Shown: positions 1,438 to 20,000, counted from the stretch's first letter. The stretch: 20,000 bases of DNA from an uncultured virus (IMG/VR IMGVR_UViG_3300025390_000008) (IMGVR_UViG_3300025390_000008), one strand, 5' to 3'. Notes: a model not told the origin generated them from the sequence alone. A program made the numbers and translations.

Positions 1438-1446
1438 GGATTAAAC

Positions 1447-3285: not shown

Positions 3286-3296
3286 AAGGATCGGTC

Positions 3297-6200: not shown

Positions 6201-9200
6201 GAAGAGCAAGAGCGTGCCAAGAAGGCCAACGAATCTGTAGCTGGAATTTCTACCGAAGTAACGCCTGAGGGTTTACCCGTACGTACAGATAATCTGTACC
6301 GTGTGCAGGGCGAGGCCAAGGGCGTGCCGGTTAACTTGGTACAAAGACTGGTTAACCAGATCAGAGAAGGCTGGGCGAATGCCCCTGAGATACAAGTTCA
6401 CGCCGATGAATCTACTTTGCCTGATCACATTCGTGCCCAAGCTGAGCGCGATAAGGTGACTGGCCAGATCCCTGGTGTCTACGATCCCAACTCCAAGATT
6501 GTTCACATCGTCAGCAGTAACTTGGCAGATGTTAAAGATCTGTTTGCCACTGTGGCCCACGAAGCAGCAGGCCACTTTGGTTTGCGCGAGATGCTGGGTG
6601 ACCAGTATGGCCGCACGATGGACAAGATCTACGAAGGCAACAAGGCCGTTCGTGAAGCTGCTGATGAGAAGCTGAAGGGCTCTAACCTGTCGCGTCAGGT
6701 GGCCACAGAAGAAGTCTTGGCGGAAATGGCTGAGAGCGAGAAGACCTCGACACCGGCTGAGCGCAGTGCCCTGAAGCAGATCTATGACACCATTCGTCGC
6801 TGGGTCTACGACAAGTTTGGTATTGGCGGGATGACCGACAATGACGTTAAGCAGATCGTTGCTAATGCCCGCAAGTTTGTGGTCGAGGGCGGTGAGAAGG
6901 GCGCTGGTAATATTACCAGTGAAGCCGTTTACCGTACCAAGTACAACCCTGGCTTCGAGAAGGCTGCTGACCTGACCAAGAAAGTCTTGTCGTCTGAGCG
7001 CCCATTCATGGAGCAGTTTAATAAGACTGCCTTTGGCCGTGCGTCGCTTGGCTGGATCCAGAAAGTCCAAGATCAATACCGTCCTTTCCTGAAGCTTACG
7101 CAACTCAAGGATGCCAATGGCCAACGGTTGATCGGCGACTCGGCTGGTAACCAGATGATGTCTGACCTGCGGTTCTATCAGCAGCGTCTGAACTTCTTGG
7201 GTGCCGTCATCCAGAACGGTGCCTTGACATTCAAGAAAGGCGTCGTGGATGGCGCTAAGCGTTCGCTCTACGAGACCGATGGCAAGGAAAGCCTGAAGCA
7301 GGTCTTTACTGAATTGCGCCCTGCAGACAAGATTACCGGCAGCCGTGAAGCTACCAATGCCTTGTATTCGCTGTGGGCTATTGCCGAGCGGGTGCGTAAG
7401 GGCGGCGCTACGCTGGAGCAGTTGAACTTTGACCCGAACATCGTCAATGCCAAGTCGCTCAAGGCGGCGATGGATGAGATTAAACAGCATCCTGAGCTGA
7501 TCAAGACGTTCGAGAGGGCCAACGAAACCTATCAGAATTTCAACTCCAACATGATGAAGTTCGCGGTGGATGCTGGTGCTATTCCCAAGGCTACTGCCGA
7601 CAAGCTGTTGTCGCGTCGGGACTACGTTCCTTACTACCGCGAAGAGCCTGATGGAACTATTTCCATGATGTCCAATGGTGAGTCGATCTTTAAGGTTGGC
7701 AACATCAAGACCCAGCCTGAGTTGAAAGCTCTGATTGGCGGCGACCAGCGGATCTTGGACTTTGCTGAGAGCTCTGTGCGTAATGCCAACATGCTGCTAA
7801 GCATGGGTATGCGTAACCAGGCGGTTAAGAATTCTATGTTTGAGCTGCAGAAGATCGGCTTAGTCGATATCCGCGACAAGGCTCCGAAGAACATGGAAAA
7901 GGCCGTGGAGTTCAAAGTCCAAGGCAAGAGCAAGTATGCCGTCTTTGACGACGCCGCTACTGAGAAGCTGAACATTCCTACCCAGTTATTCATCAAGGGC
8001 TTGGAAGGTGTTCCAACACAGATGAGCACATGGCTCAAGGTGATGAGCATTCCCAGTACCGTCCTGAAAGAAATGTTCGTTGCCAACCCCATCTCGGCAG
8101 CGCGTATCGTTTTCAAGGATACGATGTCTTCTGCCCTGGTGGCGGGCTCTGACTTTGGCAAGATCGTTGATTCCTTGCAGAGCGTTAAAGACGGTTTGAT
8201 GGTCAAGCGTGGCCTGTCGGGCGGTCAGTTGTTCACTGGCCAACCAGAAGAGATTGCCCGTGTGCTGCGTCAGGCTCAAGCCGGTGGTGTTAACGCTTCC
8301 AGCGCCTTGGCTATGGCCCATGCCTTGCACGCTCAAGCCGATGCTGCGACCCGCCAGATTCGCTATGACAGCTACCTGCATCAAGGTCTGAATGAGTTTG
8401 ACGCCAACCTGATGGCGCTGGAGTCGATGAACTTTACCAAGCGTGGTTTGTCTCCCAGCATCCATATCTTGAATGCGCTGAACCCGTTCATTAACTCTCA
8501 GATCCAAGGCGTCAATACGTTGATCGCAGCCATTCGTGGCGAGATGCCTATGCAAGAGCAGCTGCGTATTAAGCAGAAGATCCTTGCTCGCGGTGCGATG
8601 ATTGCTGGCGCGACAATGCTTTACTCTGCGCTTATGCAGGACAACAAGCACTACCGTGACGCCATGCCGGACCAGAAGTATTCCAACTGGTACATGCCCT
8701 TCCCAGGCTTGGAAGAGCCGGTAAAGATTCCAATTCCGTTTGAAGCCGGTATGCTGTTCAAGTCGGTGCCTGAGGCGATGGTCGAGCTGTTCATGAAGCA
8801 CGACAAGTCGGCGATCGACGGCCTGAAGATGACGGCCATGCGGATGATCCCCGGCCTTGAGACTTCTGCTGTGGCTCAAGCTGTTCGCCCTGGCTTGGAG
8901 GCTTACACCAATACATCCTTGCAGACTGGTGAGACGATCCAGAGCGAACGTGAGTTGAAGATGCTTCCCGGCGAACGTATCCGTCCTGGCACTTCTGGCA
9001 TTGCTCAGGAGATTGGTGGCGCTTTGAATCTGTCACCCGTCATGATCGATCACGTCATTGGTGGATACACCAGCTCGATGGGCATGGCTCTGATGCACAT
9101 TACTGATGGCATCGTTGGCTCCAAGATGCAGGGCGCTCCGGTGGCCAGCGACTTGTCTCAGACGCCTGTGATTGGTTCGCTGTTCGCTCGGGACGGCGGG

Positions 9201-9503
9201 GCTATTTTGCAGGAAGCTATGGGCAAGTTCCATGACTTGGAAGAAGTGAAGAACACTTTCACGTCTTTGAAGAATGCTGGCCAGACTGATCGGGCGATGG
9301 CTTTCTTGCGTCAACACCAAGAAGAGTATGCCAAGGCTGCGATGGCCACGTCTGCCCAGAAGCAGATTGGTCAGTTCACCAAGCAGATTGAAATGGTTGT
9401 GGCCAACAAAGACATGACCGGAGAAGAGAAGAAGCGACGCATAGACCAGATTAAGGAACAGCGCCGCGACTTTGCTGAAAAGATGTTGGCTCGGGTGAGC
9501 TAA
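3297..9503 (+). CDS. Large polyvalent virion/ejection protein (2068 aa) with zincin-like metallopeptidase (MPTase-PolyVal-like) domain and LPD38-like C-terminal region
   Basis: RBS AAGGA upstream. HEAAGHFGL at 6558-6584 followed by EEVLAEMAE. C-terminal PFINSQIQG and KIPIPFEAGMLFKSVPE resemble LPD38. Domain names recognised from memory, not searched. Confidence 0.75.
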   Translation: MPFQEFTGQLDAPSMAPKWQEFNGTLDDLTPKAVPKPEAPKPQAGLMSELERGGHEIYSNLRTALTAPFVGSDVAARAGAERAEEYNKTAAPSVDVLGDIQKAYQEKGILSSIGAGLKDLPALVGQVAPTVAEYGAAEALLPVVGPAALFLAQHYGQNVAQTAATQMAQGRDVDVDSLKALGYAVPQAALDVAHISIPLGKQVIGKIFGRGVEEAVEKGAMSEAEKLAQEQLAKKSFGESIQDGLKTGLVSGVPIMVAQTALERAYNGDKLFDDDALHQYGSAALSGALMAPMGVLGALSEKSQAAKAVGERDSAAAKAAAEAAEAEANKPENLLKLHEDFQNAKAEQADLRNQIPSKPKKDAPEEEVQAYNDAKTAADQHLNDVLKPLKLEFDQRKDAIMPVVLADQTAKINAAAQAQSAMETAIPQETAAAPINNAPPITRATLPGRDMAAQLTGNVGFNQNLLQAGREGAEQRDVATQNAMRVAADKRANQILSTTFSNDPAMNIMKQTSALKQMGYEAVPDKKGNLVAKPIAEPAPVEAPAPTAPLQANPETMRANLEAPAGQANAAFMQAAREAREATAKRDAAAQKAQEQAKQAQANQVLSTTFSPDPSINALRQNAALKQLGYESVLDKNGKQVARPVVTLPPELAPEPAPAPAPSPVGNADALRARLATAGNEANQNMLQAARDRLAALEKQKAADTTAQAQNIVKSTMSADPAIDIARKKSALAEIGHELVQDPKTGEITAQPIKEAAPEMSDVRKNVLSRQYDEEFKSLFPDHEPEHLEQFRSMPAESKDAFLQLFSDAKERQTIENPSFDELASKQTKPVAGPKNVPENPDVVESSKESKQLTADINKLKNSKDNLKNALKGSLNANDATDVSPEKDFLRYFASKDGRGRSISELVSDKTLDRFLPENMRPGSDDFDAQVSEEYIKQKLRDEDYATPEDAQEISRLSDQKWELESYLEEQERAKKANESVAGISTEVTPEGLPVRTDNLYRVQGEAKGVPVNLVQRLVNQIREGWANAPEIQVHADESTLPDHIRAQAERDKVTGQIPGVYDPNSKIVHIVSSNLADVKDLFATVAHEAAGHFGLREMLGDQYGRTMDKIYEGNKAVREAADEKLKGSNLSRQVATEEVLAEMAESEKTSTPAERSALKQIYDTIRRWVYDKFGIGGMTDNDVKQIVANARKFVVEGGEKGAGNITSEAVYRTKYNPGFEKAADLTKKVLSSERPFMEQFNKTAFGRASLGWIQKVQDQYRPFLKLTQLKDANGQRLIGDSAGNQMMSDLRFYQQRLNFLGAVIQNGALTFKKGVVDGAKRSLYETDGKESLKQVFTELRPADKITGSREATNALYSLWAIAERVRKGGATLEQLNFDPNIVNAKSLKAAMDEIKQHPELIKTFERANETYQNFNSNMMKFAVDAGAIPKATADKLLSRRDYVPYYREEPDGTISMMSNGESIFKVGNIKTQPELKALIGGDQRILDFAESSVRNANMLLSMGMRNQAVKNSMFELQKIGLVDIRDKAPKNMEKAVEFKVQGKSKYAVFDDAATEKLNIPTQLFIKGLEGVPTQMSTWLKVMSIPSTVLKEMFVANPISAARIVFKDTMSSALVAGSDFGKIVDSLQSVKDGLMVKRGLSGGQLFTGQPEEIARVLRQAQAGGVNASSALAMAHALHAQADAATRQIRYDSYLHQGLNEFDANLMALESMNFTKRGLSPSIHILNALNPFINSQIQGVNTLIAAIRGEMPMQEQLRIKQKILARGAMIAGATMLYSALMQDNKHYRDAMPDQKYSNWYMPFPGLEEPVKIPIPFEAGMLFKSVPEAMVELFMKHDKSAIDGLKMTAMRMIPGLETSAVAQAVRPGLEAYTNTSLQTGETIQSERELKMLPGERIRPGTSGIAQEIGGALNLSPVMIDHVIGGYTSSMGMALMHITDGIVGSKMQGAPVASDLSQTPVIGSLFARDGGAILQEAMGKFHDLEEVKNTFTSLKNAGQTDRAMAFLRQHQEEYAKAAMATSAQKQIGQFTKQIEMVVANKDMTGEEKKRRIDQIKEQRRDFAEKMLARVS
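4648..5570 (+). repeat. Three diverged ~90-100-aa tandem protein repeats within the 2068-aa protein
   Basis: LQAGRE..ANQILSTTFSNDP..SALKQMGYE..DKKG..AKP / MQAARE..ANQVLSTTFSPDP..AALKQLGYE..DKNG..ARP / LQAARD..AQNIVKSTMSADP..SALAEIGHE..DPKTG..AQP, separated by PAPAP-type linkers; boundaries approximate. Confidence 0.85.
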
Positions 9504-9512
9504 CTGGAATTA

Positions 9513-9794
9513 TTACCACTCAGCGGATTCTGGATAGTTTTCCATGAGCCGCTGGATGGTAACGTTTAGGGCGTCGAGCTCATCCATTTTGGCGATGATC
9601 CATGCCCGCTTCTCGCCGTGGATACCCATCTTAGGTCCTTGGTGGCAGTCGTAACAGAGGGCGATGCACGTGTACTGACTGCGCTGCCGGAAGTGGTGGG
9701 CGGCGCTGGGTCCAGGTGCATTGCATACTGAGCACGGGAGAAGCTTCACCCTTTTGAGATGACGCCTCTCCTTTGCGCTTAGCTTGTTATTCAC
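9513..9794 (-). CDS. Ref/DUF968-like Zn-binding HNH-fold nuclease
   Basis: PCSVC...AHH...ALCYDCH..G..GIHG pattern; last gene of the leftward operon. Confidence 0.7.
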   Translation of the reverse strand: MNNKLSAKERRHLKRVKLLPCSVCNAPGPSAAHHFRQRSQYTCIALCYDCHQGPKMGIHGEKRAWIIAKMDELDALNVTIQRLMENYPESAEW

Positions 9795-9985
9795 TTAATC
9801 CGTTCCTCAAGGCACGCTCTGGCCGTCTCATAGGCGCGGATAGCTTTCCCTTTTGAGGTGTAGCTATCGTCGTAGCCCATGAGGGCGAACGCTGCGAAGA
9901 AGTCCAGCAGTGTCATTTCCTCGATGCTGGGGACCGGCGGTGGTGCCGCCAGTGCCTCAAGGCCTTCAAGCTTTGGCTTGCTCAT
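9791..9985 (-). CDS. Small phage hypothetical protein
   Basis: Overlaps both neighbours; MTLLDFFAAFAL resembles the common phage MTLRDYFAAxA motif. Confidence 0.65.
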   Translation of the reverse strand: MSKPKLEGLEALAAPPPVPSIEEMTLLDFFAAFALMGYDDSYTSKGKAIRAYETARACLEERIK

Positions 9986-10268
9986 AGCCTGCCTCGTTGG
10001 TCAGTTGTGTTAACTGTTCCACGATCATGTCGGTGATGGGCACGCCCGAGATGGCGATGCTCGATACCAGCTTGTGGCGCTTGACCACTTCCTCGGCGTC
10101 GCGCATGGCCTTCTTGTAGCCTGCCATGTACTGACTGTCGCCTTCAACGATCATGGTGATGGCGTCGCGGACCAGTGAAGAAGCTTTGCGTTGTCCAGCT
10201 GCTTCTTTCAGCTTGTCGTAGATGTCTCGTCGCAAGTGGACTGAGTAAGGGATTAAGCGGTCATCCAT
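9966..10268 (-). CDS. Putative ribbon-helix-helix DNA-binding protein
   Basis: N-terminal YSVHLRRDIYDKLKEAA..KASSLVRDAI fits the beta-alpha-alpha RHH pattern; coupled within the operon. Confidence 0.55.
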   Translation of the reverse strand: MDDRLIPYSVHLRRDIYDKLKEAAGQRKASSLVRDAITMIVEGDSQYMAGYKKAMRDAEEVVKRHKLVSSIAISGVPITDMIVEQLTQLTNEAGYEQAKA

Positions 10269-10681
10269 GCTTTGAACTCCTGGAGAATGTATTTAAATTG
10301 TTGTGCTGCTTCTGGGTTGGTTTTCAACTCAGTGCGGGATTGAATGTGCAGTTCTTCACGTAGCCATTCGATAGCTTCCTCCTCGGATGCCTCGAAGGTG
10401 TGGCCGATCTCATGTAACCACTCTTGGAACTTTCGGTCGGCGCAGAGCATTCCTGCCTGTTGGACGATGTCCTTGGGGCGGGGCAGCTCCTGTTCTCGGT
10501 TCATGGGTCGCTCGTTTTCATTGATGCGAACCATGACCACCTGATACCGTGCGCCAACATAGTCGCGCATGATGGCATCAGGCACTTCGTCAGGATGGAT
10601 ATTCAGGGTAAGGATATACCCAGTCTTATCCTGCTTGATGGCGACCTTTACGGCCTCGAAGTGTGGATGTGTCATGGTCAA
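10253..10681 (-). CDS. Phage hypothetical protein (142 aa)
   Basis: ATGA overlap with the upstream gene; globular composition; function not recognised. Confidence 0.75.
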   Translation of the reverse strand: MTMTHPHFEAVKVAIKQDKTGYILTLNIHPDEVPDAIMRDYVGARYQVVMVRINENERPMNREQELPRPKDIVQQAGMLCADRKFQEWLHEIGHTFEASEEEAIEWLREELHIQSRTELKTNPEAAQQFKYILQEFKAWMTA

Positions 10682-10962
10682 AATGGCAAGTCTTCCTCGG
10701 GCATGTCATGGCGTGGAGCCTGACGTGGTGCCTGAGGTTTGTAGTCGTCGTACTTCAGGCTCAGGAAAGTGCCTTTGGTTCCTTGGCGTTTCCATCCGCT
10801 GATCTTTACCTTTACCGAGAAGCCGTCTTCGGATTCTTGGATCAGTTGCTGGAGCAGGCTGATGTCGAGGTCGATGCTGCCGTTGTAGTCGGGGGCTTTC
10901 TCGCTACGCTTTGGCAGTTTGGCTGCGAACAGTGCGCCGGAGTTTGGGTATTGGTTGCTCAT
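10678..10962 (-). CDS. Putative single-stranded DNA-binding protein (94 aa)
   Basis: Start MSNQYPNSGALF via ATGA overlap with the ERF stop; APDYNG motif; acidic-aromatic EEDLPF tail typical of SSBs; directly downstream of the annealase. Confidence 0.6.
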   Translation of the reverse strand: MSNQYPNSGALFAAKLPKRSEKAPDYNGSIDLDISLLQQLIQESEDGFSVKVKISGWKRQGTKGTFLSLKYDDYKPQAPRQAPRHDMPEEDLPF

Positions 10963-11654
10963 GCTTTTGATTCCTTGTGTTGTTTGAAGATTGCCATCAG
11001 TTCGTCCCACTTGGTCTGGTTAACAGACTTGAGTGTGCTGAAGATGTTTTGGTTTACCTTGAAGATGGACATCACGTCCGACTTGCTCTTGGCGATTTCC
11101 AGAGCGAGCTTGGTTGCTTCGAGTAATAGTTCCACCCAGTTGTCGATATCAGCGCCAGGATCGGTTGTTATCTTGAGCATCCAAGGGCCTTCTACGCCGG
11201 ACATTTCTGCTGGGGCGGTCTTTGGTAATTCTGCCACTACTGTCTTGGCTTCTGGCTTGGGCTTGGCTGGTAGCGTGGAACCGGCAACGGCATCTACTTC
11301 GTCATGCTCTGATAGCTCTAGGGCGATCAACCACATGTATCGGCGCATGTAGGTATGCGTGCTACCCAGAGACTGGATAGGCTGGCCTTTGGCGTTCTCT
11401 GCCATGACGGTGGGGCTGCTGAACTGAACTGATCCGCCGTTGGGCTCGTTGTCAAATATGTCCAGTGTGGTGACGGCGGTATTGATGTTAAACACACCGC
11501 ATAGGCCTACGGCGTCCATCAGCTTGTGGGCAGTTGGCATGAAGTCGCCAAGCTCGAAGTATTCAAAGCCAGCGAACTTGTTTTTGCCGGACTTCTTGAG
11601 GTTTAGCTTGGAGAGTTCGTATCGAACTGCTTGGAGTTTTCTATACACTGACAT
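10959..11654 (-). CDS. ERF-family single-strand annealing protein (231 aa)
   Basis: Start MSVYRKLQ with AAGGA RBS; KSGKNKFAGFEYFEL and QSLGSTHTYMRRY match the ERF Q-x-x-GS-x-x-TY-x-RRY signature. Confidence 0.85.
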   Translation of the reverse strand: MSVYRKLQAVRYELSKLNLKKSGKNKFAGFEYFELGDFMPTAHKLMDAVGLCGVFNINTAVTTLDIFDNEPNGGSVQFSSPTVMAENAKGQPIQSLGSTHTYMRRYMWLIALELSEHDEVDAVAGSTLPAKPKPEAKTVVAELPKTAPAEMSGVEGPWMLKITTDPGADIDNWVELLLEATKLALEIAKSKSDVMSIFKVNQNIFSTLKSVNQTKWDELMAIFKQHKESKA

Positions 11655-11847
11655 TGTTTTTCCTTTGTTGATTGGATGGGTGGAGCAGCCATTTCGGGCC
11701 GAGCAGTTTAATGGACTGCTGTCGCTTTGCTTCGTTGGTTTCGGCCAGTACACGCAGAAGCTCTGGCGTGACGGGGCCGTGGAATATGCTGTCGCTGATA
11801 GGCTGAGGGTTCATCAGCTCTGGAAAAAATATGTGTTTAATGTTCAT
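11641..11847 (-). CDS. Hypothetical protein (68 aa)
   Basis: AAGGAG RBS and ATGA coupling with the upstream gene. Confidence 0.65.
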   Translation of the reverse strand: MNIKHIFFPELMNPQPISDSIFHGPVTPELLRVLAETNEAKRQQSIKLLGPKWLLHPSNQQRKNNVSV

Positions 11848-12062
11848 TTGTTTCTCTCCTTGTTAATCCCTGCCATGAATCCTTTGTCCCATGCCTTCGC
11901 CCAGCAGATGCACCACAGGTCGTAGTAGCCACGGTTAAGCGGGAAACCAAAGCCTTCTTCTGAAAACATGGCCTTCACGTCTTTGCGCTTTATGAACGAC
12001 TCCCACGAATTGTCTCGTTCACGGTTCATTAGTGGCACATCATCAAACAGTCCTTCAGTCAT
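11844..12062 (-). CDS. Hypothetical protein (72 aa)
   Basis: AGGAG RBS and ATGA coupling. Confidence 0.7.
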   Translation of the reverse strand: MTEGLFDDVPLMNRERDNSWESFIKRKDVKAMFSEEGFGFPLNRGYYDLWCICWAKAWDKGFMAGINKERNK

Positions 12063-12307
12063 TCTGTTTCTCCTGAATTAAGCATTTTTAAACTTCCAAC
12101 AGTTTCGTTGCCGCAGCCGTCGCCGTCGCCGAAGCCGTTGCCGTTTCCGTAGCCGTAGCCGTAGCCGTTGCCGTCGCCGTAGCTGTAGCCGAAGCCGTAG
12201 CCGTTGCCGCCGTAGCCATCGTCGCCGTCGCCGTCGCCGTTTCCGTAGCCGTAGCCGTCGCCGTCGCCGTAGCCGTAGCCGTTGCCGTTGCCTATTGGCC
12301 TAAACAT
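12059..12307 (-). CDS. Gly-rich (G-N/Y/D-G) low-complexity protein (82 aa)
   Basis: Start MFRPIG overlaps the upstream TAA (TAATG); body is a degenerate hexamer repeat. Confidence 0.65.
   Translation of the reverse strand: MFRPIGNGNGYGYGDGDGYGYGNGDGDGDDGYGGNGYGFGYSYGDGNGYGYGYGNGNGFGDGDGCGNETVGSLKMLNSGETE
12110..12292. repeat. Degenerate hexanucleotide tandem repeat (GCCGTA/GCCGTC/GCCGTT)n
   Basis: Directly visible; encodes the Gly-X dipeptide run on the minus strand. Confidence 0.9.
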
Positions 12308-12624
12308 TAAAGCCCCCAATCATCTGCAACGGGAACGCAAAACACTTCTGCATTTTGAGGCAGGTCAACACCTTGCGGTAATGGTTTGATAATTGCTTTA
12401 TCGCTCTTTGGATTAGCAATTACGCCATCAAATCCAATTGATTCCCATCGGAATAACCAAACGGCTCGGCTCAGTTTAATGCGTCCATTTTCTCGATTTA
12501 CATCTCCTGCGAAAATCCAGCCTCGATCAACCACAATTACAGCGCGAATGCCGGTTGGTGCAGGTTGTACGGAATCGGCGCGAACATAATCGACGCCATT
12601 GATAGAGATGGTTTCATTTTTCAT
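12307..12624 (-). CDS. Phage protein, DUF6948-like (105 aa)
   Basis: MKNETISINGVDYV start with AAGGA RBS (alternative start 12654); VIVVDRGWIFAG..LSRAVWLFRW; pairing with a downstream Gly-rich ORF is a familiar phage arrangement. Confidence 0.55.
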   Translation of the reverse strand: MKNETISINGVDYVRADSVQPAPTGIRAVIVVDRGWIFAGDVNRENGRIKLSRAVWLFRWESIGFDGVIANPKSDKAIIKPLPQGVDLPQNAEVFCVPVADDWGL

Positions 12625-12650
12625 TTCAATTTCCTTTGTGGTTTGGTTAA

Positions 12651-12707
12651 TCATTCTGTTATTCCTGTTGCATCCAGCGCCATGCGTAAGGCTTCGTCTT
12701 TAGTCAT
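12651..12707 (-). pseudogene. 18-aa mini-ORF MTKDEALRMALDATGITE, probable deleted cassette remnant
   Basis: Starts at the junction-repeat ATG with a full RBS; N-terminus parallels MKDEALKLALEAL of the adjacent gene; ends in another AGGA..ATGA junction. Confidence 0.6.
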
Positions 12708-13150
12708 GTGTTCTTCTCCTTGAGTTTGGCTTCGATGCGTCTTGCGTAAACATCAATGGTCTGTGTTGGCAAACCTTGTAAGCATTCTTGTATTTCCTCA
12801 TCCGTCAGCCCAACCCATGTGCGCTGTGGTGACAACATTTTTTGAACATCCCCACACATTACTTTGATTGCGTTGTAGCCTTCAGGATCATTGCTGTCTG
12901 CAAGTTCATAAGCCTCTTGCATAATCCTGATTCTGATGGGTTCAAAGTCTTTGTTGCTCATCCACCCCACAGGCTCCTGCACAGGTGCTGCAAGGGCTTG
13001 CTTAATGGCGGTGATGGCTTGTTGCGTCCGATATGAACCGCCCAGTCGCCACACAGCAACATCGCCACTATTTTCTCCAGTCAACATATCAGGAATACCA
13101 AACAGTTTTTCCAACGCCTCCAGCGCCAGCTTCAATGCTTCGTCTTTCAT
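12704..13150 (-). CDS. Modular hypothetical protein (DEALKLALEAL / QEPVGW / WVGLTDEE / IEAKLKEKNT)
   Basis: Bounded by junction repeats at both ends. Confidence 0.8.
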   Translation of the reverse strand: MKDEALKLALEALEKLFGIPDMLTGENSGDVAVWRLGGSYRTQQAITAIKQALAAPVQEPVGWMSNKDFEPIRIRIMQEAYELADSNDPEGYNAIKVMCGDVQKMLSPQRTWVGLTDEEIQECLQGLPTQTIDVYARRIEAKLKEKNT

Positions 13151-13392
13151 GTGTTCTTCTCCTGCGCTGCTTTCAAAATTGACCGAGCAAAATCAATGAT
13201 GCGGATTTCGGTCGGGGCGTATTTAATGGTCTTATCCCAAATTTGCATGATCTCTTCATGCGATAGGTCAATCCATTCGTCCTTTGCATTTAAGGATTTG
13301 CCCGTTATCTCCAGCATGTTTTTCAGGCGATGGAGTTCCATCTCAACGTCTTTGAGTTTTGAAATTGCCTCAAATGTTTTTTCGTGCTTCAT
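13147..13392 (-). CDS. Modular hypothetical protein (81 aa; WIDLSHEE..EKNT)
   Basis: GAGGAG RBS before ATG13392 (MKHEKTF); ends in the junction repeat. Confidence 0.75.
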   Translation of the reverse strand: MKHEKTFEAISKLKDVEMELHRLKNMLEITGKSLNAKDEWIDLSHEEIMQIWDKTIKYAPTEIRIIDFARSILKAAQEKNT

Positions 13393-13543
13393 CCCGCATC
13401 TCCTCAAGTACAGTTTTAAATTGGTTGTTGACAATATCCAGTTTCAACATTTCTAAAATACCAACTACATGTGATGCTGGCAAAGTACCGTTGTATTTCA
13501 TAACAAGATCAAATAATTCAACCATCAATGTACTAGCGTTCAT
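13370..13543 (-). CDS. Hypothetical protein (57 aa, MNASTLMVELF...)
   Basis: Start supplied by the junction repeat at 13540. Confidence 0.7.
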   Translation of the reverse strand: MNASTLMVELFDLVMKYNGTLPASHVVGILEMLKLDIVNNQFKTVLEEMRDEARKNI

Positions 13544-13761
13544 GTGTTCTTCTCCTTGAGTGGATCGGTTGTGAACTTGATGTCGCCAATGGCAACCCAA
13601 TAGCCCTCTCGGTATCCTTCGTAGTGAGCAAGCCACCTTCCGTTCAAATCTTCATCGCTCATGTGGGGAACGTCGCCTTTTTTCATTGCCTCGACGTAAG
13701 CGTTCTTTCGGTTGGTCGCATATCTTGCGGCATCAAGATGCAGTTGTTCTGATGGTGTCAT
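13540..13761 (-). CDS. Hypothetical protein (73 aa, ends LKEKNT)
   Basis: Junction repeats at both ends. Confidence 0.75.
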   Translation of the reverse strand: MTPSEQLHLDAARYATNRKNAYVEAMKKGDVPHMSDEDLNGRWLAHYEGYREGYWVAIGDIKFTTDPLKEKNT

Positions 13762-14042
13762 GTGTTCTTCTCCTCGGCGTAGCCGTTCTTTTGCTTGAGT
13801 TTGGCTTCAATGGCTTGGGTCAGATTACGCAACCACGATTCATCTTTTGCACAAGTGGTTGTTTCTTCAAGTGTTAGCATTTCCTCATCAGTCAGCCCAA
13901 CCCATTCACGCTTCTTTAGGCGCTCTCTTGCGGCGATTGCCCTAATAAACATTGACATGGGGTGCGTAACGGGATACGCAGATTCAAGACCAGCCTCTTC
14001 TCTAAACCAAGCTAGGTTTTTAACCAAGTCCTCGTCTGTCAT
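13758..14042 (-). CDS. Modular hypothetical protein (94 aa; WVGLTDEE..IEAKLKQKNGYAEEKNT)
   Basis: Junction repeats at both ends. Confidence 0.75.
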   Translation of the reverse strand: MTDEDLVKNLAWFREEAGLESAYPVTHPMSMFIRAIAARERLKKREWVGLTDEEMLTLEETTTCAKDESWLRNLTQAIEAKLKQKNGYAEEKNT

Positions 14043-14212
14043 GTGTTCTTCTCCTTTTCAACTGGCCCATTAAACAGCGCCATGCCCAGCGATCCAAGCA
14101 TGACCGCCTTCAACTCTTCGCGCTCCTCTTCTGGATATTCACTGGCGACCTCATCCATGATTTTCATAATGCTGGCGGCCACTTCTTTTGCGGGAATCGG
14201 CTTTGCGCTCAT
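14039..14212 (-). CDS. Hypothetical protein (57 aa, MSAKPIPAKEVAASIMK...VEKEKNT), absent from the ORF track
   Basis: Translated by hand: 174-nt open frame running exactly between two junction repeats. Confidence 0.75.
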   Translation of the reverse strand: MSAKPIPAKEVAASIMKIMDEVASEYPEEEREELKAVMLGSLGMALFNGPVEKEKNT

Positions 14213-14406
14213 GTGTTCTTCTCCTTGTCGTATGGCCCTACCCCCAACTCTTTGGCGATTTTGTGTTGCAACTCCGTGATTCGGTGAGTGTTGCCAGCCA
14301 CTTGTGCATTTAGCAAACGAACATAACCAAGCGTGTTTTCATTGTGGTCTACAAGCAAACGCAGCTCTTCTTGCAACCGTTTTAGATACGTTGTTGGTTT
14401 ATCCAT
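14209..14406 (-). CDS. Hypothetical coiled-coil protein (65 aa, MDKPTTY...DKEKNT)
   Basis: Start ATG lies in the variant junction repeat with AAGGAG RBS. Confidence 0.7.
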   Translation of the reverse strand: MDKPTTYLKRLQEELRLLVDHNENTLGYVRLLNAQVAGNTHRITELQHKIAKELGVGPYDKEKNT

Positions 14407-14743
14407 TGTTCTTCTCCTTGAGTTTGGCTTCGATGGCTCGGGCGCGACCTTCTGCTGTGATGTAATTTCCCAAACATTCATCGCGCTCCTCATCCGTCAA
14501 CCCAACCCATTCACGCTTGCCCATTGCGTTGACTGCTTTGTCCACGCTTGATTGCATCTGTTTTTGCATTCCATCAATAAAGCCACGCTCGTATTCGCTG
14601 GCGTGCTTTCGCCAATCATCGTTGATATCCTGCAGTATCTGCTTGCCCAAGTTGGACTGTCTTTCCACCTCGTTAAAGGCTTCGTCTTCCTCCGGCGTCC
14701 AATCAACGCTGAGTCGGTCAAATACAAGTTCTACTTTTTTCAT
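14399..14743 (-). CDS. Modular hypothetical protein (114 aa; WTPEEDEAF / YERGFIDG / WVGLTDEE / IEAKLKEKN)
   Basis: TAAGGAG RBS; shares modules with paralogous ORFs in the array. Confidence 0.75.
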   Translation of the reverse strand: MKKVELVFDRLSVDWTPEEDEAFNEVERQSNLGKQILQDINDDWRKHASEYERGFIDGMQKQMQSSVDKAVNAMGKREWVGLTDEERDECLGNYITAEGRARAIEAKLKEKNNG

Positions 14744-14752
14744 TGCTACTCC

Positions 14753-14974
14753 TTAGATGATGGTTGTTCTGCGGGTGGCGGACTTTGGAAAGAACACCAG
14801 CGAGAAGACGGGGAAGTCGATCTCTTCTTTCGGGTCAACCCGCTCGGTGTTAATAATTACAGCGCCTTGCTGCATGTGGCGACGTAGTTCTCCGCCGCTC
14901 ATGTCAGTGCATGGATGCTCTGCTGACATAGGAATGGCAGGGCGTAAGTTGCTCAGGTATTGCAGGGCGTTCAT
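14753..14974 (-). CDS. Small protein with S4-like RNA-binding motif
   Basis: SGGELRRHMQQGAVIINTERV resembles the S4 consensus S-x-x-E-A-R-R-L-I-x-x-G-A-V-x-I-N-G; ATGA coupling. Confidence 0.5.
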   Translation of the reverse strand: MNALQYLSNLRPAIPMSAEHPCTDMSGGELRRHMQQGAVIINTERVDPKEEIDFPVFSLVFFPKSATRRTTII

Positions 14975-15207
14975 TGCTGCTCATTCAACTTCTTTTTCAG
15001 TGCACGGTTCTCATCCATGACTTCTTGAAGCATCTTTAGATGTTCTTTGTGGCGCTGCTCCATGACGGAAACCACTTTTTCAAAGTCAAGCATCCATTTC
15101 TTGATTGCTTGCTTGAGTAGCTCGGCGTTATACCAAATGTAGTGTTCGGTGACACCTTCAATCTTTACGCTGTCTTTCACAATAAATTCTTTAGTATTCT
15201 CATCCAT
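14971..15207 (-). CDS. Hypothetical protein (78 aa, C-terminal coiled coil)
   Basis: AGGAG RBS before ATG15207 (MDENTKEF), overlapping the exonuclease stop. Confidence 0.7.
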   Translation of the reverse strand: MDENTKEFIVKDSVKIEGVTEHYIWYNAELLKQAIKKWMLDFEKVVSVMEQRHKEHLKMLQEVMDENRALKKKLNEQQ

Positions 15208-16069
15208 GTTGCTGCTCCTGGTAACGTTTCCACTGATCACAAAAAGGTGCTGCTTGGCAGTAGCCCTCGCAGCGCGTTCTACCGCCAGGACGAACCTCAA
15301 TGGCGTATCCCTTGGTCAATACCGCTTCAGCTTCTTCCAGCGTCTTGTGGACTGATTTGGCCCGCTTACCGCCCTCTTTCATCACGGCGTACATCGTGGG
15401 TTTCTCCCACATCTCTTCAGGTGTGCATTCAGGCAGGTCGAAGTTGGCGGCGATCGCAAACACGGCATCGTTGTGTGCGCTCAGGCGTCTGGCTACATAC
15501 TGCTCGGCGTATTGAAAATCCCAGATCGGGATATCAATGATGACCACTGGGGCTTGTGGGTAGTTCTCGCGGGTAGTTGCTTCGCGGGCAGACCAGTCGC
15601 GGATGATGGCGCAAATCTGCAGCTTCTTTACATTACTTTGCTTTACTTTACGAACCAGCCAAGCATAGATGTTCAGCTGGTTCTCCCAATCGGCCTTGGT
15701 GTTCATAACAGACCATGCACCAGTAACTTTGTAGTCGCTGATGATGATGCCGTCTTCCTCGACTTCTTGCAGGTCAATAGCGCCAGAGATATGCCAGCCG
15801 TTAAATTCGATGTGCAGCCGCTCTTCAACGATGTGGTGATTGTCTTTGCCGTGCTCCAAGATGCCGTGGACGGCGGAGCCAAAGATAGACCAGACCATTT
15901 CAGAGGCGTCTTGTGTCAGCTCATCCCAATGCTTGTTCTTTAGCTGAACAATGCGGGGCGAATTCAGAATTTCTGTAGCAGATATCTGGGACGCGCCCTT
16001 GGAATACTGAGGCCGCTTGATCACATTTACAAATGTGTCCGGCAAGTTGTGGACATTGGTTATACGCAT
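15200..16069 (-). CDS. PD-(D/E)XK superfamily (RecB/Cas4-like) exonuclease
   Basis: GSAVH..LE, ISGAIDL, DYK and QLNIYAWL motifs, plus C-terminal RC..YC....FC; AGGAG RBS; first gene of the recombination operon. Confidence 0.85.
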   Translation of the reverse strand: MRITNVHNLPDTFVNVIKRPQYSKGASQISATEILNSPRIVQLKNKHWDELTQDASEMVWSIFGSAVHGILEHGKDNHHIVEERLHIEFNGWHISGAIDLQEVEEDGIIISDYKVTGAWSVMNTKADWENQLNIYAWLVRKVKQSNVKKLQICAIIRDWSAREATTRENYPQAPVVIIDIPIWDFQYAEQYVARRLSAHNDAVFAIAANFDLPECTPEEMWEKPTMYAVMKEGGKRAKSVHKTLEEAEAVLTKGYAIEVRPGGRTRCEGYCQAAPFCDQWKRYQEQQHG

Positions 16070-16103
16070 TCATACTCCTATAATTGGGGTTACGAACATC
16101 CTT

Positions 16104-16118
16104 ACTGGTTGTTCTGGT
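16104..16118 (-). promoter_or_regulatory. 15-bp box ACCAGAACAACCAGT (copy 1)
   Basis: Exact copy at 18302-18316 on the + strand; both lie just downstream of a -10 element. Confidence 0.65.
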
Positions 16119-16122
16119 AGAT

Positions 16123-16151
16123 ATGCTATCAGGTATATTCTGGAAATGCAA
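16123..16151 (-). promoter_or_regulatory. Sigma70-type promoter of the leftward operon
   Basis: TTGCAT-17 bp-TAGCAT with TGn extension on the minus strand. Confidence 0.6.
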
Positions 16152-16170
16152 CACATGAGGAAAAATATTT

Positions 16171-16464
16171 ATGGCACGTAGGGCGATGAGGCAGGACGAC
16201 AATCATGGGGCGGTGGTGACTGCTCTGCGGGCGATGGGTGCTACGGTGCATACGATCAGCCAAGGCGGTGGGATACCGGACTTGCTGGTGGGTTATAAGG
16301 GGAAGACGGCGCTGCTGGAAGTGAAGGACGGGGACAAGCCGCCGAGTGCGAGAAAGCTGACGGAGCCGGAGGAGAAGTTCTTTGCGAGCTGGTCAGGTGG
16401 TCCGCTGTTTATAGTGAACAGTCCTGAGGAGGCTTGTGCCATGCTGGAGCATCTTGGAGCGTAG
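16171..16464 (+). CDS. VRR-NUC domain nuclease (Holliday junction resolvase-like)
   Basis: GIPDLLVGYKG..LLEVK..LTEPEEKF motif; GAGGA RBS. Confidence 0.85.
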   Translation: MARRAMRQDDNHGAVVTALRAMGATVHTISQGGGIPDLLVGYKGKTALLEVKDGDKPPSARKLTEPEEKFFASWSGGPLFIVNSPEEACAMLEHLGA

Positions 16465-16483
16465 TGGAGCATTGTGGTATACT
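16445..16483 (+). promoter_or_regulatory. Extended -10 promoter (TGgTATACT) preceded by three phased TGGAGC repeats
   Basis: TGGAGC at 16445, 16455 and 16465 (10-bp period); TATACT at 16478-16483. Confidence 0.45.
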
Positions 16484-16549
16484 GAACCCGCTATTGCATT
16501 CATACATCCCTTGGTGGGTTCCACGGCTTCTTCGGAGGCCGTTTTTTTT
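16484..16549 (+). ncRNA. Candidate small antisense RNA against the exonuclease RBS/start
   Basis: Stem 16484-16493/16512-16521 with loop GCATTCATAC-A-TCC complementary to mRNA GGA-GUAUGAAUGC (16066-16078); ends in a terminator. Confidence 0.5.
16523..16549 (+). terminator. Rho-independent terminator
   Basis: ACGGCTTC-TTCG-GAGGCCGT (cUUCGg tetraloop) followed by a T run. Confidence 0.9.
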
Positions 16550-16550
16550 G

Positions 16551-16566
16551 CTGGTAATATTACCAC
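16551..16566. promoter_or_regulatory. Palindrome TGGTAATATTACCA, intergenic copy of a dispersed motif
   Basis: Perfect 14-bp palindrome covering the -35 position of TACAAT (16575-16580); other copies at 2273, 5229, 6904 and 18870, near-copies at 9504 and 15218. Confidence 0.7.
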
Positions 16567-16586
16567 TTGGCAGGTACAATTGTTCC

Positions 16587-16770
16587 TGCGTACCAAGACG
16601 CATGGGGATTGGCATAAATGGCTTACCCGCTGGAATAAACCGACAAATACCGGGTTAATGCCAAGTCGGGCTAACAGTCCCCAGTCGTGTTGGTAATGGG
16701 TTGGGGGCGAGTAGGCGAAAGCTGAAAGGGTCGCCGTGTGCAGATACACCCTGCGATGCACACACCAACA
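16587..16770 (+). ncRNA. Candidate structured RNA(s)
   Basis: Stems TGGGGATTG/CAGTCCCCA (16603-16611/16675-16683), TGTTGGT/ACCAACA (16688-16694/16764-16770), GGCGA/TCGCC and GTGTGCA/TGCACAC; AGTA-GGC-GAAA-GCT-GAA loop-E/GNRA hairpin. Confidence 0.5.
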
Positions 16771-16777
16771 ATATTTT

Positions 16778-16926
16778 CGGGTTGAAGCGTGATGTGGTGG
16801 CACGATTGCACATTGGGTGCAAAACTTCTTCTGTGGCTACTTGCTTGAACGGCAACTTCTAGAGTGCGTAATAAACAGCAGGGTGTGTTAGAAGTCTATC
16901 TGGTTCGACTCCAGACGACCCGACCA
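16778..16926 (+). tRNA. tRNA-like element (Pro-like acceptor) with ~75-nt variable-region insertion and non-canonical anticodon loop
   Basis: Acceptor CGGGTTG/CGACCCG + A + CCA; T-arm TCTGG-TTCGACT-CCAGA (16899-16915); D-arm CGT..TGG..ACG; anticodon-position stem TTGCA-CATTGGG-TGCAA; total 149 nt. Confidence 0.6.
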
Positions 16927-16927
16927 A

Positions 16928-17010
16928 TTTAGGGGGAAAGCGGATGCTGGTTACTTGTTCTAGACAGGGCACATAAAGAGACACTAGACGCAGCGAGTAC
17001 CCCACCTAAA
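16928..17010 (+). ncRNA. Candidate structured RNA with loop-E/sarcin-ricin-like motif
   Basis: GGGG-GAA (16932-16938) opposite AGTA-CCCC (16996-17003); inner helices CTGGT/ACTAG and CTTGT/ACAGG. Confidence 0.45.
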
Positions 17011-17018
17011 AAAAGTTG

Positions 17019-17045
17019 TTGACAACAGTTCTATCTGTGTATAAT
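17019..17045 (+). promoter_or_regulatory. Sigma70 promoter TTGACA-15 bp-TATAAT
   Basis: Both hexamers are perfect consensus but the spacer is short (15 bp); A-tract upstream; palindrome TGTTGACAACA (17017-17027) overlaps the -35. Confidence 0.65.
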
Positions 17046-17054
17046 CCAAAACAT

Positions 17055-17200
17055 CAACGGATTGGTAACCCGTTGTAGTTCGTAGAAACGCAACCGCAAA
17101 CCCATTGGTGAGCGGGCTTCGTCAAAGCTGGGATGTCCTGTCTACGCAGGCTCTTATGCGGCAACCAAGCCTAAAGCTCGTTCACCAATGGGTTTTTTGC
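17055..17200 (+). ncRNA. C4/CI-like antisense or attenuator module
   Basis: 22-bp stem 17098-17119/17174-17195 followed by Ts; internal TCTACG (17141-17146) and ACCAA (17164-17168) complement upstream CGTAGA (17081-17086) and TTGGT (17062-17066). Confidence 0.5.
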
Positions 17201-17205
17201 TTTTT

Positions 17206-17622
17206 AGCCGTATACCTTGATCTGGTAATTTAACGGGCACATGAACGGTTTGGCCCAGATCGAGAGCCATAAAAAGTATCGACGTGGCAAGCGCGGGTGG
17301 AGATAGCGCCAGATGTTGAGTAAACCGCCAGAACGGATCTAGGTCGAGAGATTGAGGTAATCCGGGGCAACGGCAACATTTGGGACAAGCTCGGTCAGTG
17401 CGCTAAGAAGGGGTCTCACAATGGGCCTAAATGTCTGACAGCTACGGCGGAACATTGAGAGATGACCGTAGCCAATGTAACGAAGGAAACGACCGACGTG
17501 ATATTGTTCTTCAGCCAACCCCGCGTCCTGTGGGCTAGGGGTGGGTTGTGTCCAGAGCTTCAGTCTTCTCCCTCCGTGATGTGGGTGTAATACCTTGTAT
17601 TTAGTGGCTCAGACCGATACTT
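17206..17622 (+). ncRNA. Candidate large pseudoknotted RNA upstream of the HNH gene
   Basis: No ORF of 60 aa or more in the track; many 6-10-bp helices, including long-range pairings 17264-17281 with 17600-17622. Confidence 0.5.
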
Positions 17623-17635
17623 ACCGGAGATGTAG

Positions 17636-18229
17636 ATGGCTAATCAGGTTGATAAGAGAGTTAAGGGTAGTGCCTTACCTTGGTTTATCACGTCGCGGGT
17701 CCGAGCTGATCGTCGGCTGGGGCTGAGTGAGATGGAGCAGGCGTGTCTAGCCCTGGAGGCTGAAGGTATGCCCTGCCCTGCCGATGTAAGCTTTGAGGCG
17801 TGGGTCAGGACCAACTTTGCCTATATCTGTGCTAGGTATATGGAGAAGTATCCAAAGCCTATTGGCAGTAAGGTAAAGCCCCGTCCGTCCAGGGCTCAGC
17901 GCAAGGCAGCTAGTCAACTTCGTCGTAACGCCAAGTCAGAAAAAGCGCCCGTTAAGCGGGTCGTCAAGGTGTGTGGTGTTGATGTGACCACCGACGCCTT
18001 TTTATCGACGTATGAATGGCGCAGGGTGCGTATGGAGGCGCTGAAGAAGTTTGGGCCTAAGTGTCAGTGCTGTGGAGCTACTCCCGCCCAAGGAGCTGTT
18101 ATGAACGTTGACCACATCAAGCCACGTAAGCTGTATCCAAACTTAGCCCTCAATGTAAACAATCTTCAGATCCTATGCCATGAGTGCAACCACGGTAAGG
18201 GCAATTGGGATCAAACCGACTGGCGGTAA
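17636..18229 (+). CDS. HNH endonuclease (197 aa) with N-terminal extension
   Basis: CQCCG..NVDHIKP..NNLQILCHECNHGK; GGAGA RBS. Confidence 0.92.
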   Translation: MANQVDKRVKGSALPWFITSRVRADRRLGLSEMEQACLALEAEGMPCPADVSFEAWVRTNFAYICARYMEKYPKPIGSKVKPRPSRAQRKAASQLRRNAKSEKAPVKRVVKVCGVDVTTDAFLSTYEWRRVRMEALKKFGPKCQCCGATPAQGAVMNVDHIKPRKLYPNLALNVNNLQILCHECNHGKGNWDQTDWR

Positions 18230-19551: not shown

Positions 19552-19752
19552 ATGACCGGAAGCTATTACATCGGCCAGACCAAGGCACCGCTTGCGAAGG
19601 AGTGGCGCTTGGTCGCCAAGGGGGACGACCCTATGGAAGTCGCCAAGAAGACCACTGCCCTAGCCAACAAGGGCGAGACGATGGCTCGCGTGATGTGGGT
19701 ATCGGATGAGCGGTGGGACAACACCAAAGTAATTCAGGAGATGAAGGTATGA
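19552..19752 (+). CDS. Hypothetical protein (66 aa)
   Basis: Follows the previous stop by 3 nt; ATGA coupling downstream. Confidence 0.65.
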   Translation: MTGSYYIGQTKAPLAKEWRLVAKGDDPMEVAKKTTALANKGETMARVMWVSDERWDNTKVIQEMKV

Positions 19753-20000
19753 CTGACGAACAAATTGCAAAACTATATGACCAAGCCTTGGTTATTAAAA
19801 GCAATGGTGACTATGTTGCTGGCGAATTAGACCCCGTAAAGTTTGCCAGATTGGTAGCACAACATGAGCGTGAGGCGTGTGCAGAGTTGCGCAAAACTTT
19901 GTCAGCCATTCCAAATAGCCATGTTCCACAATTACAACCAGCAGTTGATTCTGCGCTTGATTTTTATGCCGAAAGAATCCGAGCAAGAGGTGAAGCATGA
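19749..20000 (+). CDS. Hypothetical protein of the EREACA..IRARG motif type (83 aa)
   Basis: ATGA overlap and AGGAG upstream; FARLVAQHEREACA and IRARG motifs are common in small phage ORFs. Confidence 0.75.
   Translation: MTDEQIAKLYDQALVIKSNGDYVAGELDPVKFARLVAQHEREACAELRKTLSAIPNSHVPQLQPAVDSALDFYAERIRARGEA

What the first reader, a model, noticed from the sequence alone, without database searches (positions are those of the whole stretch)
12704..14437. Array of small genes joined by a repeat that is C-terminus, RBS, stop and next start in one
Seen: six exact 17-bp cores plus one variant, 170-443 bp apart. Each encodes EKNT-stop, contains AGGAG, and supplies the ATG of the next gene. Every inter-repeat interval is fully coding, including a 57-aa ORF missed by the track. 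One gene ends in a doubled tail (KLKQKNG-YA-EEKNT). The region looks more A/T-rich than the virion genes. Inference: an integrase-free gene cassette system in which the ERF annealase and exonuclease of the same operon recombine short junction homologies, so any incoming gene is expressed immediately. Such peptide tails are familiar in environmental phage ORFs, but I know of no mechanistic description.
Basis: partly seen in the sequence, partly recalled or inferred. Interest (0 to 1): 0.78.

Follow-up and report, generated by a model that had tools for sequence, protein, structure and literature searches.

The report
Gene-swapping joints in lake phage
An uncultured lake phage carries a row of small unknown genes joined by one short sequence that ends a gene and starts the next, and related phages have swapped, reordered and re-spliced these genes at that joint and at a second short sequence inside the genes.

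Summary
The repeat is real: six exact 17-mers plus one variant on the minus strand, each joining EKNT-stop, AGGAG and the next ATG. Nine close haplotypes (exonuclease DNA 91-98% identical) all differ in this array, with genes lost, gained and reversed in order. Against 14 relatives, 26 of 38 homology ends fall on the junction or on two in-gene blocks (WVGLTDEE, IEAKLK) covering 18% of the region. So half-genes are swapped as well as whole genes. One gene occurs 99% identical, bounded by these blocks, in a phage with no detectable match to this phage's core genes. The blocks keep fixed synonymous codons. One sample holds a self-closing 478-nt two-gene contig (circle or tandem copy, unresolved). 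ERF dependence is not supported: 4 of 22 repeat-bearing phage records have a detectable annealase, and distant exo-ERF relatives keep such genes elsewhere. It works like T4 PeSL cassettes and phage boundary sequences, but the joint is coding, with no promoter or terminator. This scan has reported the same kind of junction on other DNA. Verdict: new variant of a known kind; cargo function unknown.

The parts
14402..14418 (-). Variant junction (EKNNG-stop, AGGAG, ATG at 14406-14404)
   Evidence: 3 mismatches; breakpoint in L175, L187
14209..14225 (-). Exact 17-bp junction B|C
   Evidence: breakpoint in L175, L184
14039..14055 (-). Exact junction C|D
   Evidence: breakpoint in L185, L196; joint 14038 to 13540 in run X15
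13758..13774 (-). Exact junction D|E behind the doubled tail KQKNGYA-EEKNT
   Evidence: breakpoint in L185
13540..13556 (-). Exact junction E|F, the most used breakpoint
   Evidence: ends in L130, L185, L190, L196, L197, L198, L244, L248
13147..13163 (-). Exact junction G|H
   Evidence: breakpoint in L188, L197
12704..12720 (-). Exact junction H|stub
   Evidence: ends in L130, L184, L190, L196, L248
14486..14518 (-). In-gene block (K/Q)R-x-WVGLTDEE in gene A, second crossover site
   Evidence: (D5)
13881..13913 (-). In-gene WVGLTDEE block in gene D
12794..12826 (-). In-gene WVGLTDEE block in gene H
14399..14743 (-). Gene A, 114 aa, mosaic (N-part, WVGLTDEE, swappable tail, IEAKLK-EKNNG); no family
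14209..14406 (-). Gene B, 65 aa; no family
   Evidence: 99% in L175 and L188 in other contexts
14039..14212 (-). Gene C, 57 aa; no family
   Evidence: related gene in L184, L136, L146
13758..14042 (-). Gene D, 94 aa, mosaic with doubled tail; no family over cut-off
   Evidence: N-part with other tails in L185, L196
13540..13761 (-). Gene E, 73 aa, mobile cargo with 60 related loci; no family
13370..13543 (-). Gene F, 57 aa; travels with G as one unit
   Evidence: L197, 13146-13556 at 92.7%
13147..13392 (-). Gene G, 81 aa (95 aa from a TTG), with a degenerate W block; ends EKNT
12704..13150 (-). Gene H, 148 aa, mosaic of DEALKLAL, AITAIK..EPVGW, WVGLTDEE and IEAKLK-EKNT blocks with variable spacers; no family
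12651..12707 (-). 18-codon stub resembling the start of gene H, coupled to the next gene; inferred remnant of a recombined H-type gene
   Evidence: same stub in L130
15200..16069 (-). PD-(D/E)XK exonuclease upstream of the array (context)
   Evidence: phrog_2139 E 4e-48; PF12705
10959..11645 (-). ERF single-strand annealing protein downstream of the array (context), followed by an SSB-like gene at 10678-11010
   Evidence: PF04404 over cut-off; phrog_155, phrog_18154

Best explanation
The array is an accessory-gene exchange hotspot of a freshwater tailed phage. Short DNA blocks shared by many lake phages lie inside coding sequence: the IEAKLK-EKNT/RBS/ATGA junction at gene ends, WVGLTDEE about 25-50 codons upstream of it, and minor blocks (DEALKLAL, AITAIK, EPVGW). 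Homology-directed recombination between these blocks, within one genome or between co-infecting phages, deletes, inserts, permutes or replaces the DNA between them. Because every block is read in one frame and the junction carries RBS, stop and start, products stay in frame and coupled: crossing at junctions swaps whole genes, crossing at WVGLTDEE swaps N-parts and C-tails and makes mosaic proteins. Shown: rearrangement, breakpoints on the blocks, shared blocks in both partners, DNA-level fixation of codons, spread of near-identical cargo to other backbones. Inferred: that homology causes the crossovers, that the genes are expressed, that circles are intermediates. The enzyme is not dedicated: ERF plus exonuclease may do it in this phage (about 0.35), other phage or host recombination elsewhere.
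For: 9 of 9 close haplotypes with DNA in the array differ from the window. Order reversals: window D-E, L185 E-D; window B..H, L188 H-B; window E-FG-H, L197 E-H-FG. 26 of 38 distinct homology ends on junction, W or IEAKLK blocks that cover 18.1% of 12651-14760; all 7 junctions and all 3 W blocks used. In all-against-all comparison 40 of 55 ends lie on a block against 17% expected, and both partners carry a block at those ends. The same C-tail sits on H (window), A (L184), another gene (L188). Gene E with bounds IEAKLK to junction is 98.9% identical over 269 bp in a 42.7-kb record with no match to window 1-11600. E relatives show 39 different downstream neighbours in 47 distinct contexts. W-block codons are fixed beyond background in 61 distinct contexts (GGG 0.89 vs 0.13, ACG 0.84 vs 0.21, GAT 0.95 vs 0.50). 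122 of 134 junctions end a long ORF in the EKNT frame (1 and 3 in the other frames), 114 of 120 start an ORF of 40 aa or more. A self-closing D+E contig joined at the repeat in run X15. Phage ERF/exo pairs recombine short, diverged homologies (PMC3945230, passages).
Against: Junctions are also gene boundaries and W may be a domain boundary, so selection for intact units would put surviving breakpoints there whatever the mechanism; the only repeat-free boundary inside the array (F/G) was shared by one relative only, so that control is weak. 12 of 38 ends lie off the three main blocks, among them an indel in gene A near 14622-14637. The ends are not independent, so the binomial values (1e-11, 2e-19) overstate the case. 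Exact identity between the six cores is 17-22 bp, under the 23-27 bp minimal segment quoted for Red-beta and 31-34 bp for RecA. Haplotypes are metagenome assemblies, and short repeats can mislead assemblers, though a 17-29 bp repeat is shorter than usual k-mers and reads. Many E relatives lack a full junction (E ends EKN/EKQ in 27 of 47). No expression data.
Confidence: 0.72

Rival explanations
1. One reading: a dedicated cassette system in which the ERF and exonuclease of the same operon act on the 17-bp junction, and whole genes are the only units.
For: Array lies between the exonuclease and ERF genes on one strand in the window and in L175; ERF/exo of phage D3 is a RecA-independent recombinase (PMC3945230 passages); no integrase in 4 of 4 kin records, all fragments.
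Against: ERF in 3 of 22 repeat-bearing records (1 of 10 at least 90% complete), Sak 1 of 22, RecT 0, Rad52 0, AAA_24 0 over cut-off; junction between exo and ERF in 1 of 44 distant loci; a second variable array with another junction lies in the opposite operon; 11 of 38 breakpoints are inside genes. The census uses a fast first look and can miss distant annealases.
Confidence: 0.12
2. The blocks are conserved because they are functional protein motifs or strong translation signals of one paralogous family; rearrangements are homology-independent and only survivors with intact genes or domains are seen, so blocks mark but do not cause breakpoints.
For: Frame is nearly always the same; genes A, D, H share a W..IEAKLK C-terminal module found in 34-78 of 174 distant loci; mycobacteriophage start-associated 13-bp repeats are read as translation signals (PMC3203893 passages); illegitimate recombination plus selection is the standard account of phage mosaics (PMC3029335 passage).
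Against: Synonymous codons in the blocks are fixed, which protein selection does not need; both partners share the block at the breakpoint; unrelated proteins, including an integrase and a Cro-like HTH, follow the junction and unrelated proteins acquire the EKNT tail; other insertions are also flanked by short duplications (Dam gene in L130).
Confidence: 0.12
3. The different orders are assembly chimeras made at the repeats from a mixed population.
For: All haplotypes are metagenome contigs; contigs in the four runs end at the repeats (table 8).
Against: Novel neighbours carry sequence absent from the window; identical arrangements recur in separate records (L130 and L190 over 2007 bp; D-E in window and L196); a chimera needs real variation at the same points to arise.
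Confidence: 0.04

Closest known systems
PeSL (promoter-early stem-loop) cassettes of T4-type phages (Arbiol et al. 2010, PMC2839356: passages read; Comeau et al. 2014, PMC4122927: abstract and outline)
   Same: Short repeated elements flank small unknown genes in variable regions; recombination between them deletes, inserts and shuffles genes without an integrase; mini-circles are formed; each element brings expression signals.
   Different: PeSLs are intergenic promoter plus terminator elements; here the joint is 17-29 bp of coding DNA with RBS, stop and start only (no promoter or terminator excess), a second block lies inside genes and makes mosaic proteins, and the blocks are shared by phages with different backbones.
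Boundary-sequence mosaicism; Island3 genes 67/68 with a common 60-bp coding 3' end (Pope et al. 2011, PMC3029335: section 13 and passages read; the original lambdoid boundary-sequence work is recalled, not seen)
   Same: A shared C-terminal coding tail is the crossover point for gain or loss of a gene.
   Different: A single event there; here a recurring array of seven joints, at least 128 matches in viral contigs (scan stopped at its limit), with RBS and start fused to the tail and further in-gene blocks.
Start-associated sequences (SAS) of cluster K mycobacteriophages (PMC3203893: passages)
   Same: Oriented short repeat holding AGGAG just before ATG of non-structural genes, conserved beyond Shine-Dalgarno need.
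   Different: SAS were proposed as translation signals; in the passages seen no shuffling at them was shown; the repeat here encodes the upstream C-terminus and marks breakpoints.
Relaxed homologous recombination by Rad52-like phage annealases (Red-beta, RecT, ERF; De Paepe et al. 2014, PMC3945230: abstract and passages)
   Same: An ERF/exonuclease pair is present; short homologies border exchanged segments.
   Different: Most repeat-bearing records have no detectable annealase; exact core is shorter than the quoted minimal pairing segment.
Integron gene cassettes (recalled)
   Same: Promoterless small genes in one orientation, gained, lost and reordered at a repeated site.
   Different: No palindromic attC, no dedicated integrase, site is coding and non-palindromic, crossovers also occur at other blocks.

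Membership tests
PeSL cassettes | Element contains a strong sigma-70-like promoter | tested here: not met
   3 promoter-like sites in 11600-17700 against 6.8 in shuffles, none at a junction
PeSL cassettes | Element contains a terminator stem-loop and is intergenic | tested here: not met
   9 terminator-like sites against 8.1 expected, none at a junction; region wholly coding
PeSL cassettes | Gene gain, loss and replacement with breakpoints at the element | tested here: met
PeSL cassettes | Mini-circles formed between neighbouring elements | tested here: inconclusive
   One self-closing contig of genes D+E in 1 of 4 runs; circle, tandem copy and merged linear orders cannot be told apart
Boundary-sequence mosaicism | Short conserved sequence shared by both partners at the mosaic boundary | tested here: met
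   40 of 55 ends on a block, present in both partners
Boundary-sequence mosaicism | Crossover caused by homologous recombination at that sequence | not testable with these tools
   Needs a recombination assay
Integron cassette array | Tyrosine integrase (IntI) beside the array | tested here: not met
   No PF00589 in 4 of 4 kin records, all fragments; 2 of 22 other repeat-bearing records have one
Integron cassette array | Imperfect palindromic attC site between cassettes | tested here: not met
   Repeat is a non-palindromic direct repeat; none of the 25 longest of 211 inverted pairs flanks a junction locally
Start-associated sequences (SAS) | Oriented repeat with AGGAG a few bases before ATG of non-structural genes | tested here: met
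Start-associated sequences (SAS) | Cluster K 13-bp consensus and extended 17-bp inverted repeats | tested here: not met
   Sequence differs from the consensus given in PMC3203893 apart from AGGAG; no such inverted pairs seen
ERF-driven system | ERF co-occurs with the repeat | tested here: not met
   3 of 22 records, 1 of 10 near-complete

The most novel reading that the evidence does not exclude
Freshwater phages share a community-wide combinatorial protein library: a small grammar of in-frame coding blocks (DEALKLAL, AITAIK/EPVGW, WVGLTDEE, IEAKLK-EKNT/RBS/ATG, and a second REACA..IRARGEA junction) is kept at DNA level by its own use as crossover sites, lets genes and half-genes move as excised mini-circles between unrelated phage lineages, and builds new small proteins at high rate, a prokaryotic analogue of exon shuffling that needs neither integrase nor non-coding sites.
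Probability: 0.3. Interest if true: 0.8.

Novelty: new variant of a known kind. Interest (0 to 1): 0.55.

Why it matters
Most small phage genes have no known origin or function. Here their turnover can be traced to exact crossover points that are cheap to test: a 17-29 bp scarless joint and an in-gene block. If homology at these blocks drives exchange, it explains how a large class of lake-phage ORFans is built and spread, shows that some conserved 'peptide motifs' in phage proteins are recombination sites, and gives a natural case for the boundary-sequence model of phage mosaicism against illegitimate recombination plus selection. It also marks such arrays as libraries to screen for host-takeover or anti-defence proteins.

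Tried and rejected
No whole genome is held for the window. Family scans of cargo genes A-H: nothing in PHROGs, nothing over cut-off in Pfam, one weak PADLOC hit (PtuB, E 0.003, 1 of 9 proteins; not accepted). Atlas searches for H and E gave only unnamed clusters under 0.9. 75 of 80 genes that start at the junction in other phages have no Pfam family. Cultured-phage records gave only short block-sized matches, 7 records by DNA and 3 by protein. A search for the reversed E-D junction in viral contigs found 0; it rests on L185 and run X15. No RNA holder listed. Codon figures for the KEKN block were dropped because the search seed fixes them; IEAKLK figures are partly biased for the same reason. 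Searches had no positive control in the same call, so the lack of ERF and of core-gene matches in those five fragments is weak, strongest for the 42.7-kb record. Paper searches that found no description of this junction: (the library lacks most subscription journals; supplements were not read). The lambdoid exo-xis/Ea22 region was considered as an analogue from a search listing only and not tested. Loci L193 and L194 were fetched and not analysed. No fold or complex job was sent: it would not bear on the recombination claim.

Full report
Observation. The minus strand of 12704-14418 holds six exact copies of a 17-mer and one variant; shuffles give at most one match at three mismatches. Spacings are 443, 393, 218, 281, 170 and 193. 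Each exact copy reads EKNT-stop in the upstream gene, holds AGGAG, and overlaps stop and start as ATGA. Eight ORFs, here A to H in reading direction (114, 65, 57, 94, 73, 57, 81, 148 aa), cover every base of 12704-14437. The region is 46.6% GC against 53.4% in 1-9503.

Context. The array lies in a leftward operon between a PD-(D/E)XK exonuclease and an ERF annealase followed by an SSB-like gene. The left half of the window codes large proteins; that they are podovirus-type virion proteins is my inference, the 2068-aa one hitting only an unnamed PHROG. 24 of 24 listed runs are freshwater metagenomes. A 23-base form of the junction occurs in 11 genome contigs, 8 of them titled as betaproteobacterial bins, a weak hint at the host. 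None of A-H has a family.

Close relatives differ in the array. The exonuclease and a DNA anchor at its 3' end gave L130, L175 and seven informative metagenome contigs (L184-L188, L190, L191), 91-98% identical in the exonuclease gene; two of nine metagenome hits were left out (L183 ends before the array, L189 repeats L130), and L129 and L181 are the window's own sequence. All nine differ from the window. L175, 95% identical over the left-hand genes, has a four-gene array and lacks C to H. L185 has E before D, the window D before E; L188 has H before B. Five further records with gene E at 97-99% (of 60 E loci) add E-H-FG in L197 and E joined directly to the window's 11844-12062 gene in L244.

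Breakpoints. Against these 14 relatives there are 38 distinct ends of alignments of 70 bp or more in 12651-14760, contig ends excluded. 15 fall on a junction (9.0% of bases), 7 on a WVGLTDEE block (6.1%), 4 on IEAKLK (3.0%), 12 elsewhere; all seven junctions and all three W blocks are used. Several of the 12 lie on minor blocks (DEALRMAL, EPVGW, AITAIK, the RBS of A); four belong to one indel in A. All-against-all among ten haplotypes, 40 of 55 ends lie on a block against 17% expected, with a block in both partners. These ends are not independent, so the counts matter more than the P values. The segment between W and IEAKLK is itself a module: the tail of window gene H sits on gene A in L184 and on another gene in L188, and gene A has a different tail in most haplotypes.

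Reach. The exact 17-mer has at least 128 matches in viral contigs (stopped at its limit). In 134 distinct contexts with enough upstream DNA, 122 end an ORF of 50 codons or more in the EKNT frame, against 1 and 3 in the other frames; 114 of 120 start an ORF of 40 aa or more. Of 80 such downstream genes, 5 have a Pfam family, among them an integrase and a Cro-like HTH. Gene E, bounded by IEAKLK and the junction, is 98.9% identical over 269 bp in a 42.7-kb record that gave no match to window 1-11600 or to the ERF (no positive control in those calls). E relatives have 39 different downstream neighbours in 47 contexts, though only 27 of 47 keep an EKN/EKQ end. In 61 distinct contexts the W block, which was in no search pattern, keeps single synonymous codons far above background (GGG 0.89 vs 0.13, CTG 0.79 vs 0.25, ACG 0.84 vs 0.21, GAT 0.95 vs 0.50). 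This is conservation of DNA, as expected if blocks spread and are homogenised by exchange; common descent alone could contribute.

Reads. Four runs were laid, all as contigs. Contigs and loose ends stop at the blocks. In run X15 one 508-nt contig of depth 163 (flanks 53-87) runs through gene D with another tail, gene E, and back into D through the repeat, its two ends overlapping by 30 bases. My reading is a closed loop of about 478 nt: an excised circle, a tandem copy, or the D-E and E-D orders merged. It cannot be resolved here. D-E to E-D is what excision and re-entry at the inner junction would give.

Enzyme. ERF/exonuclease pairs recombine short and diverged sequences without RecA, with a minimal exact segment of 23-27 bp quoted for Red-beta (PMC3945230, abstract and passages). 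Exact identity among the six cores is 17-22 bp, 29 bp for one pair with the variant. Of 22 records of 28 kb or more that carry the junction (21 from the first 80 loci plus L175), ERF was found in 3, Sak in 1, RecT and Rad52 in none, AAA_24 in none over cut-off; among 10 near-complete records, 2 have an annealase. In 44 distant loci with both exonuclease and ERF, one has a junction between them; 16 of 46 distant loci have junctions, mostly upstream, downstream or on the other strand. So the blocks do not depend on an adjacent ERF, though ERF may act in this phage. No tyrosine integrase was found in four fragmentary kin records; 2 of the 22 others have one.

Known systems. PeSL elements of T4-type phages shuffle small genes and form mini-circles without an integrase (PMC2839356, passages; PMC4122927, abstract); they are promoter-terminator elements, which this joint is not. 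Mycobacteriophage Island3 genes 67 and 68 share a 60-bp coding 3' end read as the crossover for gene gain or loss (PMC3029335, section 13): the same principle, once. Cluster K start-associated repeats resemble the RBS side only (PMC3203893, passages). Six searches found no paper on this junction. The scan's own notes hold 32 findings with these words in other genomes, one of them on lake phages with three blocks; none matched this DNA by sequence. They are unchecked notes and were read after my reading was set.

Verdict. A real, well-supported exchange hotspot that works like PeSL or boundary-sequence shuffling but is not a PeSL or an integron. What is new is that the crossover sites are coding, in frame, scarless, of more than one kind, and shared across phage backbones. 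The causal role of homology, the enzyme, circles and cargo function remain inferred or open. New variant of a known kind; interest 0.55.

Noticed in passing
window 19552-20000 (+), continuing in L129; L130, L175, L183, L191: A second variable array in the opposite operon uses another junction (IRARGEA-stop, GAGGTG, ATGA) and an in-gene REACA block; contents differ in 5 of 5 records. One gene sits in this array in L175, L183, L191 but behind an EKNT junction in L185, and L198 runs from this array straight into A and E.
   Followed up: partly
L130 8501-8947 and L190, behind the exonuclease (window 15200-15232): A Dam-family methyltransferase (PF05869, E 3e-29) is inserted with a duplication of the exonuclease's last codons, so the same tail-as-joint principle applies with a third sequence.
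   Followed up: partly
L191, within gene A (window about 14691-14706): A 173-aa ORF with an HNH-like look (motif recalled, not scanned) is fused to the start of gene A and followed by a restarted copy of A.
   Followed up: no
window 12059-12319 (-): 86-aa Gly-Tyr/Asp-rich low-complexity gene made of 6-bp units, with very high summed contig depth, so shared by many phages in the runs; absent from L175.
   Followed up: no
window 11844-11860 and about 12059-12075 (-): Weaker junction-like sites; the gene between them is 96-97% identical in L196 and L244, where it follows an exact EKNT junction, so the mobile zone extends to about 11844.
   Followed up: partly
window 17098-17195 and 16523-16551: A 22-bp inverted repeat pair with 54-nt spacer (I9) and a strong terminator-like hairpin kept in L175 and L183 in the mostly non-coding region between the divergent operons.
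   Followed up: no
window 17636-18229 (+): HNH endonuclease gene (phrog_144); L175 and L183 have no alignment to it.
   Followed up: no
L068 1925-3004 (-): A phage integrase gene (PF00589, E 1e-14) starts directly at an exact EKNT junction.
   Followed up: no
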